From sequence record PQ567651.1: a stretch of 64,000 nt of DNA. One strand, written 5' to 3'. Position numbers and translations under genes: made by a program. Below the pieces are notes generated by a model that saw nothing but the letters and a program-made list of their open reading frames with translations, searched no databases and was not told where the DNA came from. This document shows, piece by piece, positions 45,042 through 51,673 of this stretch; the stretch's first letter is position 1, and each line of letters starts with the position of its first letter. The stretch comes from Escherichia phage cardinal.

Positions 45042-48000
45042 ATGGGAGCTTTTACTTTCGACATTGAAAGTAACAACTTGCTTAATGACGAAAGTGTAGA
45101 TTACTTGGCAAGTCCATATCGTTTAAAAGATAGTTTTGCAATGCACTGTATTGTGTGCGAAAGTCATGAGACTGGAGAGATTATTGCTTTCCATGATGGT
45201 GATAAATATCTTTTCGATGGTCGTCCGTATATTGAGACTGACGGAAAGTATGAATACCGACTGGAGGAATATGAGCATTTAGAATATACCCATTTCCCTC
45301 TTAAAGATTTTCCTGATTTTGTAAATGGAACAGGTAAATTTAAAGGTAATTCAAACTATAAAATTACCAAAGTAGTTGGACATAACATCATTAACTTTGA
45401 CTTACTGGCAATTAAATTATTTTTTAAACTCAACTACAGTATTAAGTACAATACTTGGGGTAATAGTAACATTGAAATTTGTGATACTATGATCTTAAGT
45501 AAGACACTAAACCCTGATCGCTTCGGTGGTCATAGTCTGGCAGAGTTATCTAAGAAAGCTGGAGGGGATGTTAAAATTGATTTTAGAAAAAACATCCCTG
45601 AAACTGAAAGATTTAAAACATTTGCAGCAGATATGCTGTATTACTGTATTTACGATAACAAAGCTAACACCGCAGTGTTCCGTTATTTGATGGAAGAGTG
45701 GGGTGATTATAATAAGTGGTCTGAACCATTTAACTTAGAACAACGTGTAGCTGATATTATTACACGTCAAGAGCACCGTGGCTTTGCTTTCAATATGAAG
45801 CAAGCAGAAGATAATATTCGTGATCTGGATGCTCGAATGGAAGCATGTCGTTTAGAGGCAGAACCTGTGCTACCTCCTAAACCTGCTACTAAAGGTTATT
45901 TGAAATCATTCATTCCACCTAAACTACAGTTTAAAAAGAATGGTGAACCTTCAAGTAACATGATAAAGTTTGCAGAGAAACATTCTGGTGAACTTGTACA
46001 AAAAGAAGATGGTTGGTGGTTATTTGCATTAGGTAAAGAGTTTAAACTGCCTATTCCAGCAGAAGAACCTATTTGTGATCCTACAGTACCTGCTACTTTA
46101 GACGACACTACACATATTAAAAATTGGTTAGTTGGTTTAGGTTGGAGTCCATCTGAATATAAAGATAAAGATATCACTCTTAAATCTGGCACTAAGATTA
46201 AGAAAGATGAAGCACAAATGGAGAAAGCTATTCGTGACTATGTTGATCAAACGTTAGCATCTAACTTCTGCCAGGACAGATGTGATCATCTGGAGTGCAC
46301 ACCAGAAACTTTGGAATGGAAACTAAGAGATCGTATTGCTAAAGCTAAAGGTCGTGGTGTTAAAGTGCTTACTAACCCTTCCTTTACAAAAGGGCAAGAG
46401 AAAGATATTTGTCCTAATTTGGAAGCACTAGGTGAAAAGTTTCCTTATGCTACGCAGATTGTGCAGTATCTTACGTATAAACACCGTAGGAACTCTATTC
46501 TAGGGGGTGGTGCTGATTGGGAAGAAGATGAAGAGGATTACGATAAAGGTTATCTGGCAGCAGTAAGGGCTGATGGTCGTATACCAACCCCTGCTGCAAC
46601 GTGTGATGCAGCTACGTCTCGTATGAAACATAGGTTAGTAGCAAATATCCCACGTGTAACATCTCTGTACGGATATGAAATGCGTAATTTATTTGGTGTA
46701 GAAGTTCCAAAATACTTCCAAATTGGTTATGACTTTGATTCTCTTGAGGCAAAAATAGAATCACACTACTGTGTACCTATGGATGCACAAGCACTAACCC
46801 GTAAAGGTTGGGTTGGTTATCACGATCTACAAGAAGGGGATGAAATCTTAGGATATAACCCAGAAACAGGACTTAAAGAATGGACTAAAGTAAAAGGTAA
46901 GGTCTTCTATAAAAATAGTAAGACGTTTGAGATTAAAGGGAAATCACACACTTACCGTGCAACAGCAGATCACCGTTGGTATGTTAATACCCGTAGTAAA
47001 GGGAATACTTATGTGCCTAAAGTCAGAACAACTGCCGAGCTTTGCACAGGAGATAATATTATTTGTAATGCTCCATTTAACATGGAACAAGATCAGGTAA
47101 ATAGTTTAACTTCTGTTCAACAAGGTAAATGGGATGTTCCGTGGGTAGAGCGTGTAGTTAATATGTCTCATGCCGAGCGTGTGGCTTTCTTGGAAGGTTT
47201 TTTGATTGCGGATGGTTACTGGCATGAACATAAACAAAAACCTGTTTGGCGTTGGGCGCAGAACCCAGGTGAACTTTTTGAAGCAGCTTTAACTGCCTCG
47301 TACCTGGTGCATGGAGGCAATATCTCTGTAGCTTTCAATACAAAAGAGCAGAAAGTAAAAGTGGCAACATTGGCTAACCGCTCTCACATTCCTGTTCAAA
47401 GTTTGACTATTGAAGAGTGGGGTGTAGAGGATGTTTGGTGTCCACAAACAGAACTTGGTACGTGGGTCATGCGTCAGAAAGACTGCATTACCATCACAGG
47501 AAACTGTTGGCGGTACGAGCAGGAACCACACGAATATTGTAATGCTCTATTATTGGAAAAACCTAATGATGTTCATACAATGATGGCTCGACGTATTTCT
47601 GACACTATTGGTCGTAAGTTTGAACGAAGCCCTGCTAAATCTGTTAAGTATGGTATTACTTATGGTGCTCAAGCTGCAAAAGTAGCAAAAACTATAGGTA
47701 GTGATATGTATACAGGACAGCTTGTATACGATGCTTTCTGGGAAGCTGCAAAACCTCTTGCGCTTCTTAAAGAACGTCTGCATGATTTTTGGGTTAAAAC
47801 AGGTAAGAAATACATTCTTGGTATTGATGGTAGGAAAGTACCTACACGATCTGCACACGCAATACTTAACTCTCTGTTCCAGAGTGGTGGTGTTATTTGT
47901 GCAAAAAGAGCAATGGTTATCTACGACGATCTTATCGAAGAAGAAGGATTAGCTGTTGACTTTTTTGTTGATGACTGGAAAAATAAGTCATTCGTTCAAC

Positions 48001-48356
48001 AAATGATTGCATATCACGATGAAGCACAGCTTGAAGTAACTCGTGATCTGGTGCATTTTAAATGGTTCTCTAAAGAATCTTTAGGTTGGACTCAAGTTGA
48101 TGATCCAGAGGAACAAAAGAAAATTGATAAAGAATGTTTGGATAAAGTTAATGCCTGGAAAGAAGAGGAAGAGAAGCGTACTGGCAAGATTTGGGCTAAC
48201 GTACATGAATCTCCAAAAGGTGGTTGGTTTACAGCCTACAGTCGTGCTGGAGAATTAGCATCTATTGCTGTTAATAAAGCTGGTGAGTATTACAATCTTA
48301 ATGTACCTCTCACTGCTGGATACGATGTTGGTAGTTCATGGTCAACTTGTCACTGA
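45042..48356 (+). CDS. family A (Pol I/T7-like) DNA polymerase containing an intein
   Basis: N-terminal 3'-5' exonuclease motif FDIESNNL; motif A region GYDFDSLEAKIESHY | intein | CWRYEQ...; downstream AKSVKYGITYGAQAAKVAKTIG aligns with T7 Pol AKTFIYGFLYGAGDEKIG. Confidence 0.85.
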   Translation: MGAFTFDIESNNLLNDESVDYLASPYRLKDSFAMHCIVCESHETGEIIAFHDGDKYLFDGRPYIETDGKYEYRLEEYEHLEYTHFPLKDFPDFVNGTGKFKGNSNYKITKVVGHNIINFDLLAIKLFFKLNYSIKYNTWGNSNIEICDTMILSKTLNPDRFGGHSLAELSKKAGGDVKIDFRKNIPETERFKTFAADMLYYCIYDNKANTAVFRYLMEEWGDYNKWSEPFNLEQRVADIITRQEHRGFAFNMKQAEDNIRDLDARMEACRLEAEPVLPPKPATKGYLKSFIPPKLQFKKNGEPSSNMIKFAEKHSGELVQKEDGWWLFALGKEFKLPIPAEEPICDPTVPATLDDTTHIKNWLVGLGWSPSEYKDKDITLKSGTKIKKDEAQMEKAIRDYVDQTLASNFCQDRCDHLECTPETLEWKLRDRIAKAKGRGVKVLTNPSFTKGQEKDICPNLEALGEKFPYATQIVQYLTYKHRRNSILGGGADWEEDEEDYDKGYLAAVRADGRIPTPAATCDAATSRMKHRLVANIPRVTSLYGYEMRNLFGVEVPKYFQIGYDFDSLEAKIESHYCVPMDAQALTRKGWVGYHDLQEGDEILGYNPETGLKEWTKVKGKVFYKNSKTFEIKGKSHTYRATADHRWYVNTRSKGNTYVPKVRTTAELCTGDNIICNAPFNMEQDQVNSLTSVQQGKWDVPWVERVVNMSHAERVAFLEGFLIADGYWHEHKQKPVWRWAQNPGELFEAALTASYLVHGGNISVAFNTKEQKVKVATLANRSHIPVQSLTIEEWGVEDVWCPQTELGTWVMRQKDCITITGNCWRYEQEPHEYCNALLLEKPNDVHTMMARRISDTIGRKFERSPAKSVKYGITYGAQAAKVAKTIGSDMYTGQLVYDAFWEAAKPLALLKERLHDFWVKTGKKYILGIDGRKVPTRSAHAILNSLFQSGGVICAKRAMVIYDDLIEEEGLAVDFFVDDWKNKSFVQQMIAYHDEAQLEVTRDLVHFKWFSKESLGWTQVDDPEEQKKIDKECLDKVNAWKEEEEKRTGKIWANVHESPKGGWFTAYSRAGELASIAVNKAGEYYNLNVPLTAGYDVGSSWSTCH
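46770..47504 (+). mobile_element. intein (245 aa) with LAGLIDADG-like endonuclease motif in DNA polymerase
   Basis: Starts CVPMDAQALT, ends ...ITITGN with +1 Cys; internal VAFLEGFLIADGYW resembles a LAGLIDADG motif. Confidence 0.65.
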
Positions 48357-48493: not shown

Positions 48494-49087
48494 ATGAATA
48501 TTGAAGATCAAAAAGTACGAGCTTTAGAAGTATTACGTATGTGCCAACTGGTAGATCCGTTTGCAATTGTAGCTGGCGGCGCTGTACGTGATTGGCGATT
48601 AGAGAAACCTGCGCAAGATATTGACATTTACTTGCGTATGCCTAACCACAATACACTCGTACTAGTAGAGAAATTTTTGATGTTGGGTGTTGGTGCACGT
48701 AATGTTAAACAACTTACTAAGCAAACAGAACACACTTATGCCGAACTACCACATTTGAAATGGGTATTTGAAGCATACTATAAAGATCTTAAGTTTAACT
48801 TTATGATCATGGAAGAAGGTGTACGTAGTGAAATCGTATGGAACTTTGATGTAGCTATCTGCCTGTGTTACTGGGATGGTCAAAATTATGTATATCATCC
48901 AGATTTTGAATTTGCATTGAAGACTAATATTTGCACTATTAATCACCGATACACAGGTAAAGAAGCACACGTCCGTAAAATGGCAGAACGTTTCCCTATG
49001 TTCCGCTTTGTAAAAGACGTTTTCATTCCCAAAGAACCAGAAGTACGTACACTAGATTCATTTAACAGTGAAGAATTTAAAATTTAA
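48494..49087 (+). CDS. Pol-beta-superfamily nucleotidyltransferase (CCA-adding enzyme head-domain-like)
   Basis: FAIVAGGAVRDWRLEKPAQDIDIYL matches the GGaVRD...DiD head-domain signature of tRNA nucleotidyltransferases and poly(A) polymerases. Confidence 0.5.
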   Translation: MNIEDQKVRALEVLRMCQLVDPFAIVAGGAVRDWRLEKPAQDIDIYLRMPNHNTLVLVEKFLMLGVGARNVKQLTKQTEHTYAELPHLKWVFEAYYKDLKFNFMIMEEGVRSEIVWNFDVAICLCYWDGQNYVYHPDFEFALKTNICTINHRYTGKEAHVRKMAERFPMFRFVKDVFIPKEPEVRTLDSFNSEEFKI

Positions 49088-49545: not shown

Positions 49546-50493
49546 ATGCCAGTAATTAATTCTGAAATCGACCGCCGTACTAAAAAAGAAGCATTCTGGG
49601 CTGAAGGTATCGTCGAATATGTCAAACTAGATAAGTTTGATGAAATGAAAGTCTCTTATATTAAGGTTGCAGGTCAGCCAGATAAGAAAATTGAATCAAC
49701 TCACAAAGCATCTCTGCTTATTAAAGAGAAAGGTGCTGGTGCTGATGATAAGGGTGTTTGGGTTAGCCTAGGTGAAGTTAAACTGCACCCAGAACATGAA
49801 AACCTGCAAGTTAAAGATGGTGATAAGTGGATTACTATCGAAAAAGGTGTAGAAGTAACTATGGATGTTAAACCTTCCGAATGGAATGGCAAAACATACT
49901 ACAACTCCTCTAAAGGTAAAATCACTGTTCTTTCAACAGAAGGTGTTCAGCAAGCACAATCTTCTTCAAAAGGTGGAAATAAGCCATCTAATAACGAAGG
50001 TAGCAAGCCTAACTACAAAAAACGTGATACCGTAGGGATTGAAACAGGACACGCTGTAAACGGCGCTCTGGAGCTTCTACGTGCTGGTGTGAAAGGTGAT
50101 GCTTTCGACTTGGCTGGTGTGGTACAATCTGCAACTGTTACTCTGAAAGCAGAAATTGCTAAAGATCGTGGCGTTGATGTGACTGACTATGATCTTGGTG
50201 CTTCAGTTGGACATGCAATTCTTAACGCTTGTCGTGATCATACAGGTAAAACTGTAACGGCAGAAGAGATTATTGAAGCTGCTCGTGAAGTTCTTGCTTT
50301 GTCTGATAAAGTAGCTGCTGCTATCCGTGGAATGTCTACCCCGGTACAAGAAGTTAAGAAAGAAACTAAAAAAGTAGAGAAGAAAGAGCCAGCACCGAAA
50401 GAACCAGAACCTGTTGTTCAAGATTTCGATGATGATATCCCATTTGCTCCTATTGGTTTGCAGTATGGTCGAAACTTCCTGCACTGTTTCTAA
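49546..50493 (+). CDS. putative ssDNA-binding protein with SSB-type acidic tip motif
   Basis: N-terminal OB-fold-like region, G/S/N-rich linker, and DFDDDIPF (the E. coli SSB C-terminal tip) located 15 residues before the actual C-terminus. Confidence 0.45.
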   Translation: MPVINSEIDRRTKKEAFWAEGIVEYVKLDKFDEMKVSYIKVAGQPDKKIESTHKASLLIKEKGAGADDKGVWVSLGEVKLHPEHENLQVKDGDKWITIEKGVEVTMDVKPSEWNGKTYYNSSKGKITVLSTEGVQQAQSSSKGGNKPSNNEGSKPNYKKRDTVGIETGHAVNGALELLRAGVKGDAFDLAGVVQSATVTLKAEIAKDRGVDVTDYDLGASVGHAILNACRDHTGKTVTAEEIIEAAREVLALSDKVAAAIRGMSTPVQEVKKETKKVEKKEPAPKEPEPVVQDFDDDIPFAPIGLQYGRNFLHCF

Positions 50494-50515
50494 TAGTTAA
50501 ATATTGTGTGAATAT

Positions 50516-50541
50516 AAGGAGCCTAACGGCTCCTTTTCTTT
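50516..50541 (+). terminator. intrinsic terminator
   Basis: aaggagcc-taac-ggctcctt followed by ttctttg. Confidence 0.55.
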
Positions 50542-50553
50542 GAAGGAGATATA

Positions 50554-51285
50554 ATGAGCGAATTTGTAAACAACACCGCATTAAACTACCTGCAAACCCT
50601 CGAAAGCAATAGTGTAGATTTGATTCTTACTGACCCGCCATATGCTATTTCTCGTGACACAAATTTTCAGTCTGGAGAGCCTACTGGAAAAGATACGGAT
50701 AGATTCCGTGTATCTTACAACTTTGGTGATTGGGATGTTGTAGATATTCCTTACTTTAAAGAAGTATTCAAAGAAGCCTACAGGGTGCTTAGAAAAGGTG
50801 GTACTTGCATAGTTTGGTATGATATCTGGAAGATCCAGGAGCTACGTGAAATCCTTGAACCGCTTGGTTTTCGTATGTTCCGTACTATCGAATGGATTAA
50901 AACAAACCCTGTACCCATCAACAGTGGTGTTAACTACCTTAGTAACGCTAAAGAGATGGCTATTGTTTGTGTTAAAGGTTCGAAGCCAACCTTCAATGCT
51001 TCCTACCATAAGGGTGTGTTTGAGTATCCTATCTATCAAGGAGCAGATCGTTTTCATCCAACACAAAAACACTTGACTTTGTTTTGTGACCTTATTAATA
51101 TACACACCAACGAAGGAGATGTAGTCTTAGACTTCTTCTCTGGAAGTGCAACAACACAAGTTGCGGCACTTTTAACAGGTAGAGAATACTTAGGCTGTGA
51201 AGCCGATGTAAATATTTTTAAGCAAGCGGAGGAACGACTAAATGAGTACACTGAACAGCAAAATCACCCTGAAAGCACTGATTAA
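50554..51285 (+). CDS. DNA N6-adenine / N4-cytosine methyltransferase (beta class)
   Basis: Motif IV DLILTDPPYAIS near the N-terminus and AdoMet-binding VLDFFSGSATT near the C-terminus. Confidence 0.75.
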   Translation: MSEFVNNTALNYLQTLESNSVDLILTDPPYAISRDTNFQSGEPTGKDTDRFRVSYNFGDWDVVDIPYFKEVFKEAYRVLRKGGTCIVWYDIWKIQELREILEPLGFRMFRTIEWIKTNPVPINSGVNYLSNAKEMAIVCVKGSKPTFNASYHKGVFEYPIYQGADRFHPTQKHLTLFCDLINIHTNEGDVVLDFFSGSATTQVAALLTGREYLGCEADVNIFKQAEERLNEYTEQQNHPESTD

Positions 51286-51673
51286 CAATGGTATGAACCT
51301 GGACTCTGGTCTGTCTCCAAAGATTTCTATGGCACGACTGGAACAAGTTACTGGTCTTCGTCAAGTAAGTAATGGCGGTAAGATTATTCGTGATGACGCT
51401 GTACCTTTTAATAAATTTCAGATTGAACGTCACTACGATCCTGTAACTGCAAGTCTCACTGGTGTAACTTTCTCAGGTTATCGTACTGCCGGATACCAGC
51501 GTAAGGTTGTAGCTGAACGTATTAAGAGTCGCAAACAGAAAATTGCAACATTGAAGAAACTGGTAGAGAAAGATGTTTCAGAACTTCTTAACCTGTATGA
51601 AACTCTTGAAACAAAAGGTGAAGATCATAAACTCTTCTCTAAAGAAGATGTAAGCGTAATTTTCACTGATTAA
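51242..51673 (+). CDS. hypothetical protein
   Basis: 143-aa ORF overlapping the methyltransferase 3' end; true start may be further in. Confidence 0.4.
   Translation: MSTLNSKITLKALINNGMNLDSGLSPKISMARLEQVTGLRQVSNGGKIIRDDAVPFNKFQIERHYDPVTASLTGVTFSGYRTAGYQRKVVAERIKSRKQKIATLKKLVEKDVSELLNLYETLETKGEDHKLFSKEDVSVIFTD

What the first reader, a model, noticed from the sequence alone, without database searches (positions are those of the whole stretch)
49546..50493. SSB-like protein with an internal rather than C-terminal DFDDDIPF motif
The E. coli SSB C-terminal tip DFDDDIPF, which recruits host replication and repair proteins through its free terminal Phe, appears here but is followed by 15 further residues (APIGLQYGRNFLHCF). 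Either the phage protein presents the host-interaction motif in a masked form, or the extension reflects an unrecognised frame problem.
Basis: seen in the sequence. Interest (0 to 1): 0.4.

Follow-up and report, generated by a model that had tools for sequence, protein, structure and literature searches.

The report
Conserved mobile cap on phage SSB tip
The 15 residues after DFDDDIPF are not an error but a conserved add-on found on many unrelated phage ssDNA-binding proteins and linked to a selfish endonuclease, and it buries the free terminal Phe that host repair and replication proteins are known to grip.

Summary
ORF 49546-50493 (315 aa, Phi92_gp156 homolog) ends ...DFDDDIPF(300)-APIGLQYGRNFLHCF(315). 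A frame or sequencing problem is excluded: all 55 phi92-like genomes carry the stretch ungapped.

The tail is a conserved module, AP[IV]GL[QMP]Y...hydrophobic-COOH, 14-17 aa, 102 unique versions. It occurs on at least five unrelated ssDNA-binding scaffolds, whose family profiles all end at the Phe. It is under purifying selection (pS 0.74, pN 0.18; first eight codons pN/pS 0.065). In a DDIPF-independent scan it was always preceded by [IV]PF. It is predicted disordered.

It is tied to an HNH homing-endonuclease family that specialises in SSB gene 3' ends: about 90% of 77 relatives sit 80 nt or less after an ...IPF-type tip. In Vequintavirus and Phapecoctavirus, tail plus endonuclease is a discrete cassette inserted exactly after the Phe codon. 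This window has the tail but no endonuclease.

Known SSB partners anchor the Phe carboxylate. My inference is that the tail caps the canonical tip and presents a new linear motif to an unidentified, probably host, partner. The Lon-degron resemblance failed a statistical test. I found no prior description.

The parts
49546..50493 (+). Gene for the SSB-like protein (315 aa; Phi92_gp156 homolog; phrog_4477)
   Evidence: ORF. 99% DNA identity to phi92-like phages. phrog_4477 at E 1.9e-101, no Pfam hit. It lies in a replication module downstream of a family-A DNA polymerase gene at 45042-48356.
49546..49935 (+). Residues 1-130: predicted OB-like beta-barrel, the presumed ssDNA-binding domain
50032..50325 (+). 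Residues 163-260: four-helix domain of unknown role
   Evidence: AF2 helices 163-179, 186-208, 215-230 and 239-260 at pLDDT above 90. Only non-specific helical matches.
50326..50421 (+). Residues 261-292: disordered Lys/Glu/Pro-rich linker
   Evidence: pLDDT about 40-70 with no secondary structure. Length and sequence vary among homologs.
50422..50445 (+). Residues 293-300: DFDDDIPF, identical to the E. coli SSB C-terminal tip but internal here
   Evidence: Tip sequence from PMC3152348 and PMC5872125. D293, D295, D297, P299 and F300 are invariant in tail-bearing homologs.
50446..50490 (+). Residues 301-315: APIGLQYGRNFLHCF, the conserved C-terminal tail module (cap)
   Evidence: Same module in 20 of 97 family clusters, in more than 120 viral loci that are mostly PF00436 SSBs, and in 47 cluster representatives on further scaffolds. 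pN/pS is 0.24 overall and 0.065 for the first 8 codons. Disordered in two AF2 runs.
50465..50500 (+). +1-frame mini-ORF MVETSCTVSNS*, which shares its first six residues with the Mt1B1_P17 endonuclease N-terminus (MVETSCIASKVCFKCG...); no endonuclease body follows
   Evidence: The similarity follows from the 87% DNA identity of the two tails, so it is consistent with loss of an endonuclease but is not independent proof of it.
50516..50545 (+). Intrinsic-terminator-like hairpin and T-run directly after the gene
   Evidence: 8-bp stem, 5 GC pairs, then TTCTTT. An equivalent hairpin follows the tail-less genes in L001 and ukendt.
50554..51285 (+). Dam-like N6/N4 DNA methyltransferase occupying the variable slot that holds the endonuclease in related phages (context, not part of the module)
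   Evidence: PF01555 at E 1.9e-30. Absent from the tail-less relative L001 and replaced by an HNH gene in L002 and Mt1B1_P17.

Best explanation
The ORF is a genuine replication-module ssDNA-binding protein made of an OB-like barrel, a helical domain and a disordered acidic tail. Its host-mimicking SSB tip is deliberately followed by a conserved, portable 14-17-residue C-terminal module, AP[IV]GL[QMP]Y-x4-[IL][HNY][CVA][IML]-COOH. SHOWN: the module is real and fixed in the genus. It is under purifying selection in the SSB reading frame. It occurs on at least five unrelated SSB scaffolds. In the scan that did not require DDIPF it was never found without the ...[IV]PF tip. Its length is fixed. 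It is predicted disordered and does not dock on its own protein. It is associated with an HNH homing-endonuclease family that sits almost exclusively at the 3' ends of SSB genes. In Vequintavirus and Phapecoctavirus, tail plus endonuclease is one cassette inserted exactly after the Phe codon. INFERRED: (1) The endonuclease family targets the conserved tip-coding DNA, the only sequence these genes share, and spreads the tail by insertion or co-conversion. The phi92-like lineage keeps the tail without the endonuclease. (2) Known partners (RecO, DnaG, ExoI, chi, PriA) anchor the free alpha-carboxylate of the terminal Phe, so extending the chain caps the tip and should weaken canonical docking. 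(3) The tip plus tail then acts as one composite linear motif with a new hydrophobic C-terminus that engages a trans-acting partner. That partner is most probably host-encoded, because the phages carrying the tail share no common neighbouring gene and the tail is confined to phages of Gammaproteobacteria. The partner is not identified.
For: Reality: (55 of 55 genomes). Conservation and modularity: (102 unique tails, 14-17 aa). Scaffolds are PF00436, phrog_4477, 7364/18154, 2544/32668 and 3284, and each profile ends at the Phe. Selection: (pS 0.74, pN 0.18; first 8 codons 0.67 vs 0.044); window vs Mt1B1_P17 tails are 15/15 aa identical with 6 synonymous differences while the proteins are 62% identical. 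Where the endonuclease ORF overlaps the tail, the endonuclease N-termini vary and the SSB-frame tail does not. Tip dependence: 23 of 23 real-ORF APIGLQY occurrences are preceded by [DEK][IV]PF and end 7-9 codons later. Disorder. Cassette boundaries. Vequintavirus polymorphism: 52 of 116 records cover at least 80% of the cassette query, and sampled others are clean empty sites. Endonuclease specialisation: at least 69 of 77 relatives lie 80 nt or less after an acidic ...IPF tip; HNH-type PHROGs. Carboxylate anchoring: RecO R132, DnaG R452 and similar pockets in ExoI, chi and PriA. Host-partner argument: upstream neighbours fall into 22 clusters; distribution is confined to Gammaproteobacteria and tail subclass tracks host clade; genome hits are prophage contexts.
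Against: No binding, stability or processing data exist, so capping and a new partner are inferences. Tail-less and tail-bearing phages of the same genus both thrive on E. coli, so the tail is neither essential nor lethal. In Vequintavirus and Phapecoctavirus the tail's presence is explained by selfish endonuclease spread alone. The link between tail class and host clade could reflect horizontal transfer within host-limited gene pools rather than co-evolution with a host partner. DDDIPF stays perfectly conserved although internal, which pure masking does not explain. AF2 gives no structured conformation for the tail. Which came first, tail or endonuclease, is unresolved.
Confidence: 0.6

Rival explanations
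1. Frame, sequencing or annotation artefact: the true protein ends at DDDIPF and the extension comes from an indel or a missed stop.
For: Most homologs (about 77 of 97 clusters) and all PHROG profiles end exactly at the Phe.
Against: There is no stop or frame break. The stretch is identical and ungapped in 55 of 55 independently sequenced genomes. The same 15-aa motif appears in distant relatives and other scaffolds with saturated synonymous change.
Confidence: 0.01
2. Functionless scar: the SSB frame simply reads on into the 5' end of an inserted or lost homing-endonuclease cassette. The peptide is tolerated but does nothing, and its only role is at DNA level, splitting the endonuclease target.
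For: Tail plus endonuclease is a single insertion at the Phe codon. Longer tails occur where the endonuclease start overlaps or abuts the SSB stop, and other unrelated short extensions (IPFN, IPFS, GPCWQ, RHRHWLS) exist next to the same endonuclease family. Tail-less sister phages are viable.
Against: pN/pS is 0.065 over the first 8 codons with synonymous sites near saturation. The tail persists in endonuclease-free lineages: 55 phi92-likes, Seunavirus, Mydovirus and more than 100 prophage SSB loci. Length is fixed at 14-17 aa and the C-terminus is hydrophobic across 102 variants. DNA-level immunity would not conserve amino acids while codons drift.
Confidence: 0.1
3. C-terminal degron: the disordered non-polar tail marks the phage SSB for turnover by a host AAA+ protease (Lon, ClpXP/ClpAP or FtsH), limiting the toxicity or timing of a host-tip-bearing SSB.
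For: The tail is disordered, of fixed length, and has a hydrophobic C-terminus (I/M/L in 76 of 102). Endings such as ...IYAL and ...YALA recall ssrA ...YALAA (from memory). By eye, SGLKIHSNLYH of Sul20 aligns with IGLQYGRNFLH.
Against: Scoring Sul20 (sequence from PMC8087443) against a tail PSSM gives P of about 0.014-0.063 against random peptides and 0.07-0.12 against shuffles, before multiple-testing correction. A degron does not explain the near-invariant AP[IV]GL.Y half or the strict adjacency to IPF.
Confidence: 0.12
4. Pro-peptide: the tail is cleaved at F300|A301 by a host or phage protease, or by autoprocessing, to release a canonical free DDDIPF tip at the right time.
For: This would explain why DDDIPF stays perfectly conserved although internal, and why the tail always begins at the same junction with small residues (A/S-P).
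Against: No protease motif or candidate was identified. The phages carrying the tail share no common protease or neighbour. It does not explain conservation of the distal half or the fixed length.
Confidence: 0.08
5. Docking site for a phage-encoded partner, for example the homing endonuclease itself, the phage polymerase or a recombinase.
For: There is precedent for phage SSB tails recruiting phage proteins: the HK620 SSB tail is needed for Sak4 (PMC5928155), and T7 gp2.5 binds its polymerase and helicase (from memory). The endonuclease is physically linked to the tail.
Against: The tail occurs in 140-150 kb lytic myoviruses and in 35-55 kb contigs that look like temperate-phage genomes or prophages, with 22 different upstream neighbour clusters and variable downstream genes. 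Most tailed loci, including this window, have no endonuclease.
Confidence: 0.08

Closest known systems
E. coli SSB C-terminal tip (SSB-Ct, ...MDFDDDIPF-COOH), the hub for ExoI, RecQ, RecO, PriA, chi, DnaG and others
   Same: Identical DFDDDIPF octapeptide at the end of a disordered linker on an OB-fold ssDNA-binding protein. Relatives carry EPPMDFDDDIPF.
   Different: Here the Phe is not C-terminal, so its alpha-carboxylate, which partners anchor with an Arg, does not exist. Fifteen conserved residues follow. The OB domain is not a PF00436 member.
Phage SSB C-terminal tails that recruit phage proteins (HK620 SSB NDYPPF with Sak4; T7 gp2.5 terminal Phe; T4 gp32 acidic domain)
   Same: A short C-terminal peptide on a phage SSB acts as the protein-protein interaction handle (PMC5928155; T7 and T4 from memory).
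   Different: Those act through the extreme C-terminus of a single motif. Here a host-type tip is capped by a second conserved motif shared across unrelated phages that have no common partner gene.
Free-standing homing endonuclease genes of phages (T4 seg/mob, HNH and GIY-YIG classes; review PMC2988022, listed but not read)
   Same: Presence/absence polymorphism among close relatives, precise insertion next to a conserved essential-type gene, overlap with the neighbouring ORF, and annotation as endonuclease VII or homing endonuclease.
   Different: This family is specialised on SSB gene 3' ends across many scaffolds. In a subset it is associated with an in-frame peptide extension of the target gene, and that extension survives under selection after the endonuclease is gone.
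Inteins and group I introns carrying homing endonucleases
   Same: A selfish endonuclease invades a highly conserved coding site in a way that keeps the host gene's product usable.
   Different: There is no splicing here. The added sequence remains in the mature ORF as a C-terminal extension. No intein or intron signatures were seen.

Membership tests
E. coli-type SSB (PF00436) with SSB-Ct tip | Sequence membership in the PF00436 OB-fold family | tested here: not met
   No Pfam hit at E up to 1. By contrast, tailed prophage SSBs hit PF00436 at 6e-40.
E. coli-type SSB (PF00436) with SSB-Ct tip | OB-fold ssDNA-binding domain | tested here: met
E. coli-type SSB (PF00436) with SSB-Ct tip | Disordered linker ending in the acidic D-D-D-I-P-F motif | tested here: met
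   Residues 261-300 are disordered and DFDDDIPF is at 293-300.
E. coli-type SSB (PF00436) with SSB-Ct tip | The Phe is the C-terminal residue, with a free alpha-carboxylate that partner pockets anchor | tested here: not met
   Fifteen residues follow F300. The anchoring requirement comes from PMC3152348 and PMC5872125.
E. coli-type SSB (PF00436) with SSB-Ct tip | ssDNA binding, oligomerisation, binding of host SSB-interacting proteins | not testable with these tools
   Needs biochemistry.
phrog_4477 (phi92/rV5-type two-domain SSB-like proteins) | Full-length profile match | tested here: met
   E 1.9e-101; the profile ends at residue 300. 97 homolog clusters.
Bipartite tip-plus-tail module (defined in this report) | Tail starts immediately after ...[IVL]PF | tested here: met
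   Window junction IPF|APIGL. 23 of 23 independent occurrences obey this.
Bipartite tip-plus-tail module (defined in this report) | Core [AS]P[IVL]GL[QMP][YH]; total length 14-17 aa; hydrophobic last residue | tested here: met
   APIGLQY core, 15 aa, ends in Phe. Statistics over 102 unique tails are.
Free-standing HNH homing-endonuclease cassette at an SSB 3' end | Endonuclease ORF directly after or overlapping the SSB stop | tested here: not met
   The window has only an 11-codon +1-frame ORF, then a terminator and a methyltransferase. The endonuclease is present in Mt1B1_P17, L002, JES2013/rV5, L100 and L126.
Free-standing HNH homing-endonuclease cassette at an SSB 3' end | Presence/absence polymorphism with precise boundaries among close relatives | tested here: met
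   Shown in relatives, not in this genus: JES2013 vs FV3, Mt1B1_P17 vs ukendt; 52 of 116 Vequintavirus records.
Free-standing HNH homing-endonuclease cassette at an SSB 3' end | Site-specific cleavage of the empty allele and super-Mendelian inheritance | not testable with these tools
   Needs enzyme assays and phage crosses.
C-terminal proteolysis tags (SulA/Sul20 Lon degron, ssrA) | Significant sequence similarity to a validated degron | tested here: not met
   Tail PSSM vs Sul20: P 0.014-0.063 (random peptides) and 0.07-0.12 (shuffles), uncorrected.
Beta-clamp-binding motif (QL[SD]LF / QLxLx[LF]; consensus from memory) | Leading Gln and L-x-L-x-hydrophobic spacing | tested here: inconclusive
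   P-I-G-L-Q-Y has the I-x-L-x-Y spacing but Pro replaces the Gln. The Hda motif region scores -6.1 bits against the tail PSSM. No binding or complex prediction was possible.

The most novel reading that the evidence does not exclude
Phages of Gammaproteobacteria carry a second, unrecognised layer of the SSB-tail code. A portable 14-17-residue cap converts the promiscuous host-mimicking DDDIPF tip into a composite motif with a different specificity, for example evading host nucleases and helicases that load via the free Phe while recruiting a distinct host factor. This cap is carried between unrelated SSB genes as cargo of a homing-endonuclease family that targets the tip-coding sequence itself, so a selfish element would be delivering a functional peptide to its target gene.
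Probability: 0.3. Interest if true: 0.8.

Novelty: new variant of a known kind. Interest (0 to 1): 0.62.

Why it matters
The free C-terminal Phe of SSB is treated as the essential handle by which more than a dozen replication, repair and recombination proteins find ssDNA, and it is also a drug target. A widespread, selected class of phage SSBs in which that Phe is deliberately internal gives a natural experiment on how the tip is read. It also offers a defined 15-23-residue peptide for pull-downs that could reveal a new partner or an evasion strategy. Separately, an HNH family that homes to SSB gene ends, and in some cases extends the target protein, is a clear example of a selfish element reshaping an essential protein's interaction motif. 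It also explains patchy C-terminal differences that annotators will otherwise keep reading as errors.

Tried and rejected
(1) Frame or sequencing error: rejected.

(2) Tail strictly linked to a downstream endonuclease: rejected. Most tailed loci have variable, unrelated downstream genes, and the window has a terminator and a methyltransferase.

(3) Tail conservation caused by the overlapping endonuclease frame: rejected. The endonuclease N-termini vary while the SSB-frame tail is conserved, and conservation persists where no endonuclease exists.

(4) Lon degron (Sul20) or ssrA similarity: not significant.

(5) Intramolecular docking or a stable fold for the tail: no support. pLDDT is about 42-52 in two AF2 runs, one with a tail-only alignment. 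A beta-hairpin that brings the new carboxylate back next to the Phe remains pure speculation.

(6) A common phage-encoded neighbour as partner: none; upstream neighbours fall into 22 clusters.

(7) Host chromosomal ssb carrying the tail: the bacterial hits are prophage-like contexts.

(9) Pfam on the endonucleases: no hit; PHROGs named them.

(10) Literature searches (DDDIPF+phage; GLQY+SSB; IPFAP; SSB+homing endonuclease): no prior description in the held library. Subscription-only papers are not covered.

Full report
**1. The observation**

The window contains one ORF at 49546..50493 (+), 315 aa, ending ...VVQDFDDDIPFAPIGLQYGRNFLHCF. DFDDDIPF is residues 293-300 (nt 50422-50445), and the 15-residue tail is nt 50446-50490. 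The Phe codon TTT is followed by GCT CCT ..., with no stop and no frame break.

The window is a phi92-like Escherichia myovirus (Justusliebigvirus), 99% identical to EmilieFrey and muut, and the ORF corresponds to Phi92_gp156. The 181 nt spanning the tail are present as a single ungapped piece at 98.3% identity or better in all 55 phi92-like records. A read, assembly or frame artefact is therefore excluded.

**2. What the protein is**

There is no Pfam hit. The protein matches phrog_4477 (unknown function) at 1.9e-101, and that profile, like two weaker PHROG matches, stops at residue 300.

AlphaFold2 gives four regions:
- a confident beta-barrel, residues 1-130
- a disordered linker
- a four-helix domain, residues 163-260
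- a disordered C-terminal 55 residues

**3. The tail is a conserved, portable module**

Among 97 homolog clusters of this family, most end exactly at ...DFDDDIPF. Twenty carry a 14-16-residue extension with the same core, for example APIGLQYGRNFLHCF, APVGLQYARHAIYAL, APIGLPYGRNFIHCI and ASLGLQYASHAIHAIF. These include relatives only about 35% identical to the window protein.

Most host ORFs there are 160-180 aa canonical SSBs (PF00436, 6e-40) with tails such as APIGLPYPRHAIYVI, APIGLMYPRHLINVI and APIGLQYPALLMCM.

An exhaustive profile search with the tail region found 47 cluster representatives on further scaffolds: phrog_7364/18154, 2544/32668, 3284 and others. In each case the family profile ends at the Phe.

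Across everything collected there are 102 unique tails, 14-17 aa long (86% are 14-15). The consensus is A-P-[IV]-G-L-[QMP]-Y-[PG]-x-x-x-[IL]-[HNY]-[CVA]-[IML]-COOH.

**4. Selection**

I used seven tails found only through whole-protein homology, so they are not biased by any motif pattern. Nei-Gojobori proportions are pS 0.74 and pN 0.18. For the first eight codons they are 0.67 and 0.044, a ratio of 0.065.

The window and Mt1B1_P17 tails are identical at all 15 residues yet differ at 6 synonymous sites, while the two proteins are only 62% identical overall.

In the larger junction set, all four codons are used at Ala, Pro and Gly and five at Leu. The positions that were left free in the search pattern are also restricted.

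Where an endonuclease ORF overlaps the tail in another frame, the endonuclease N-termini are poorly conserved and the SSB-frame tail is conserved. Selection therefore acts on the peptide.

**5. The tail never occurs alone**

A scan that did not require DDIPF (the pattern encodes APIGLQY) gave 39 loci. All 23 occurrences that lie in real ORFs are directly preceded by [DEK][IV]PF and end 7-9 codons later. The other 16 have neither feature: 15 lie in ORFs with fewer than 50 codons upstream, and one (L158) is internal to a long ORF that reads on for 301 more codons. Tip and tail therefore behave as one unit of fixed length.

**6. Link to a homing endonuclease**

Three matched comparisons differ by tail plus an HNH gene versus neither:
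- ukendt vs Mt1B1_P17 (Phapecoctavirus)
- FV3 vs JES2013 (Vequintavirus)
- L001 vs L002 (metagenomic relatives)

. The first two are close pairs in which the exact boundaries could be mapped; L001 and L002 are only about 80% identical.

In JES2013 vs FV3, homology runs through the Phe codon, a 638-nt block follows, and homology resumes at FV3's stop codon. In Mt1B1_P17 vs ukendt the left junction is the same, and 510 nt replace 28 nt.

In Vequintavirus, 52 of 116 records cover at least 80% of the cassette query, including the type phage rV5. Every sampled row among the rest spans about 221 nt, that is, the two flanks joined with nothing between. None of the sampled rows shows a tail-only intermediate.

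The endonucleases belong to phrog_2340 and phrog_1035 ("endonuclease" / "endonuclease VII", HNH-type). Homologs 50-55% identical to the Mt1B1_P17 enzyme sit at the tail's end on two further scaffolds, L100 and L126.

I then searched with an alignment of this endonuclease family. The scan gave 549 relatives, of which the best 80 were kept; 77 of those had upstream DNA. At least 69 of the 77 (about 90%) lie 80 nt or less downstream of an ORF ending in an acidic ...[IVL]PF tip:
- about 27 of those ORFs end exactly at PF
- about 30 have one extra residue (N 21, S 6, and one each of R, D, K)
- 12 have longer tails, of which 4 are AP.GL-type; the others include APAFARAAWAIA, SDPLKGKLWAIQ, RHRHWLS and GPCWQ

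The longer tails occur where the endonuclease start overlaps or abuts the SSB stop. This claim covers only the 80 closest relatives (41-63% identity).

My inference is that the family targets the tip-coding DNA, because that is the only sequence these genes have in common.

**7. The window's own state**

The tail is followed by its stop codon, a terminator-like hairpin (50516-50535) and a Dam-like methyltransferase gene (PF01555). There is no endonuclease.

The +1 frame reads MVETSCTVSNS*, which shares its first six residues with the Mt1B1_P17 endonuclease N-terminus. Because that follows directly from the DNA similarity of the two tails, it is consistent with loss of an endonuclease but does not prove it.

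Seunavirus (SalP219, GAP31), Mydovirus (K54lambda1.1.1) and most prophage SSB loci also have the tail without the endonuclease.

**8. How it probably works**

Published structures and mutagenesis show that the carboxyl end of Phe177 is anchored by RecO R132 and DnaG R452. Similar pockets, with an ionic interaction to the C-terminal Phe, are reported for ExoI, chi and PriA (PMC3152348, PMC5872125). Extending the chain removes that carboxylate, so canonical docking should be weakened. This is an inference.

The tail is disordered in two AF2 runs, one using only tail-bearing sequences, and does not dock on the protein's own domains. That is what one expects of a linear motif acting on another molecule.

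Several observations point to a host partner rather than a phage one, though none is conclusive:
- Tail-bearing phages range from 140-150 kb lytic myoviruses to 35-55 kb contigs that look like temperate-phage genomes or prophages.
- Their SSB genes have 22 different clusters of upstream neighbours, and downstream genes are variable.
- Bacterial-genome hits are prophage contexts, and are almost all in Gammaproteobacteria.
- Tail subclass follows host clade: Morganellaceae GL[PM]YPRH.I.VI, marine taxa GLQYPALL.CM, Enterobacteriaceae GL[QP]YGRNF[LI]HC[FI]. Horizontal spread within host-limited gene pools would produce the same pattern.

I therefore favour a capped tip plus a new composite docking motif for an unidentified, probably host, factor.

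The fixed length and hydrophobic C-terminus suggest that the new terminus is itself recognised. Continued conservation of the internal DDDIPF suggests that it remains part of what is read.

**9. Rivals**

- A functionless scar is contradicted by the selection data and by persistence of the tail without the endonuclease.
- A degron is possible but lacks support. The Sul20 resemblance scores P of about 0.014-0.063 against random peptides and 0.07-0.12 against shuffles, uncorrected, and ssrA and the other tags score negative.
- A removable pro-peptide would explain why the tip stays conserved, but no candidate protease was found.
- A phage-encoded partner is disfavoured by the diversity of genomes that carry the tail.

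**10. Novelty**

Five searches of the held literature found no description of the tail or of an SSB-end-specific endonuclease family. The library omits most subscription-journal papers.

Both components are known kinds of thing: SSB C-terminal interaction tails, and free-standing homing endonucleases. The capped, portable tip and its coupling to the endonuclease appear to be a new variant of those kinds.

Noticed in passing
L176-L250 (for example L188, L213, L222): SSB genes next to the same endonuclease family: About 30 of 77 SSB-type ORFs next to this HNH family end in ...IPF plus one residue (N 21, S 6, and one each of R, D, K). The junction DNA is recurrent: CCTTTTAATTAG|AACGGGTCTATAATGG, which contains a TATAAT-like box. 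P0088 in the phi92/rV5 family also ends in DDIPFS. Single-residue capping of the tip may be a second common outcome of endonuclease insertion.
   Followed up: partly
L005 2492-2899 (Mt1B1_P17 gp117, NC_052662.1): The annotated endonuclease start (MADGHVNK...) omits the first CxxC of the zinc finger. The ORF is open from an ATG inside the SSB tail (TAT GGT read as ATG G), giving MVETSCIASKVCFKCGVLKPLTEFYKHKAMADGH..., so the record's start is probably too far downstream.
   Followed up: partly
Phage records MG0656xx seen: Records named 'Campylobacter phage A150/A145/C3/A110a/D1/A142...', with C. jejuni listed as host, are 96-99% identical to E. coli phi92-like or rV5-like phages. This looks like mislabelling or contamination.
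   Followed up: no
window 48494-49087 (+), 197 aa: The gene two upstream of the SSB-like gene has a weak PolyA_pol head-domain hit (E 0.0017) and is annotated nucleotidyltransferase in relatives. Its 210-212 aa counterparts in L001 and L002 have PF26128 (Gad2, an anti-Gabija family to my knowledge) on record. It may be an anti-defence gene inside the replication module.
   Followed up: no
window 50554-51673 compared with L001 3901-3946 and L002 3944-4372: The slot between the SSB-like gene and the reverse-strand tail-protein genes is a variable hotspot. The window has a Dam-like methyltransferase plus a phrog_20244 ORF, L001 has nothing, and L002 and Mt1B1_P17 have an HNH endonuclease.
   Followed up: partly
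P0065 (UniRef A0AAU7PI71, Salmonella phage SalP219): A 409-aa homolog of the SSB-like protein is named 'Tail fiber protein' by its source. That is almost certainly a misannotation carried over from the adjacent reverse-strand tail gene.
   Followed up: no
L197, L239 and P0096: Other, non-AP.GL tails following IPF (APAFARAAWAIA, SDPLKGKLWAIQ, ANPMRLSAGLYLAI) share an aromatic-small-aliphatic ending (WAIA, WAIQ, YLAI) that resembles ...IYAL and ...IHCI of the main class. This could be convergence on the same C-terminal feature.
   Followed up: no
L166 (IMGVR_UViG_3300020046_003745): A tip-plus-tail (…EFDDKIPFAPIGLQYRSILNCM) closes an open frame of more than 626 codons, far longer than any other carrier. 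It could be a fusion protein or an assembly oddity.
   Followed up: no
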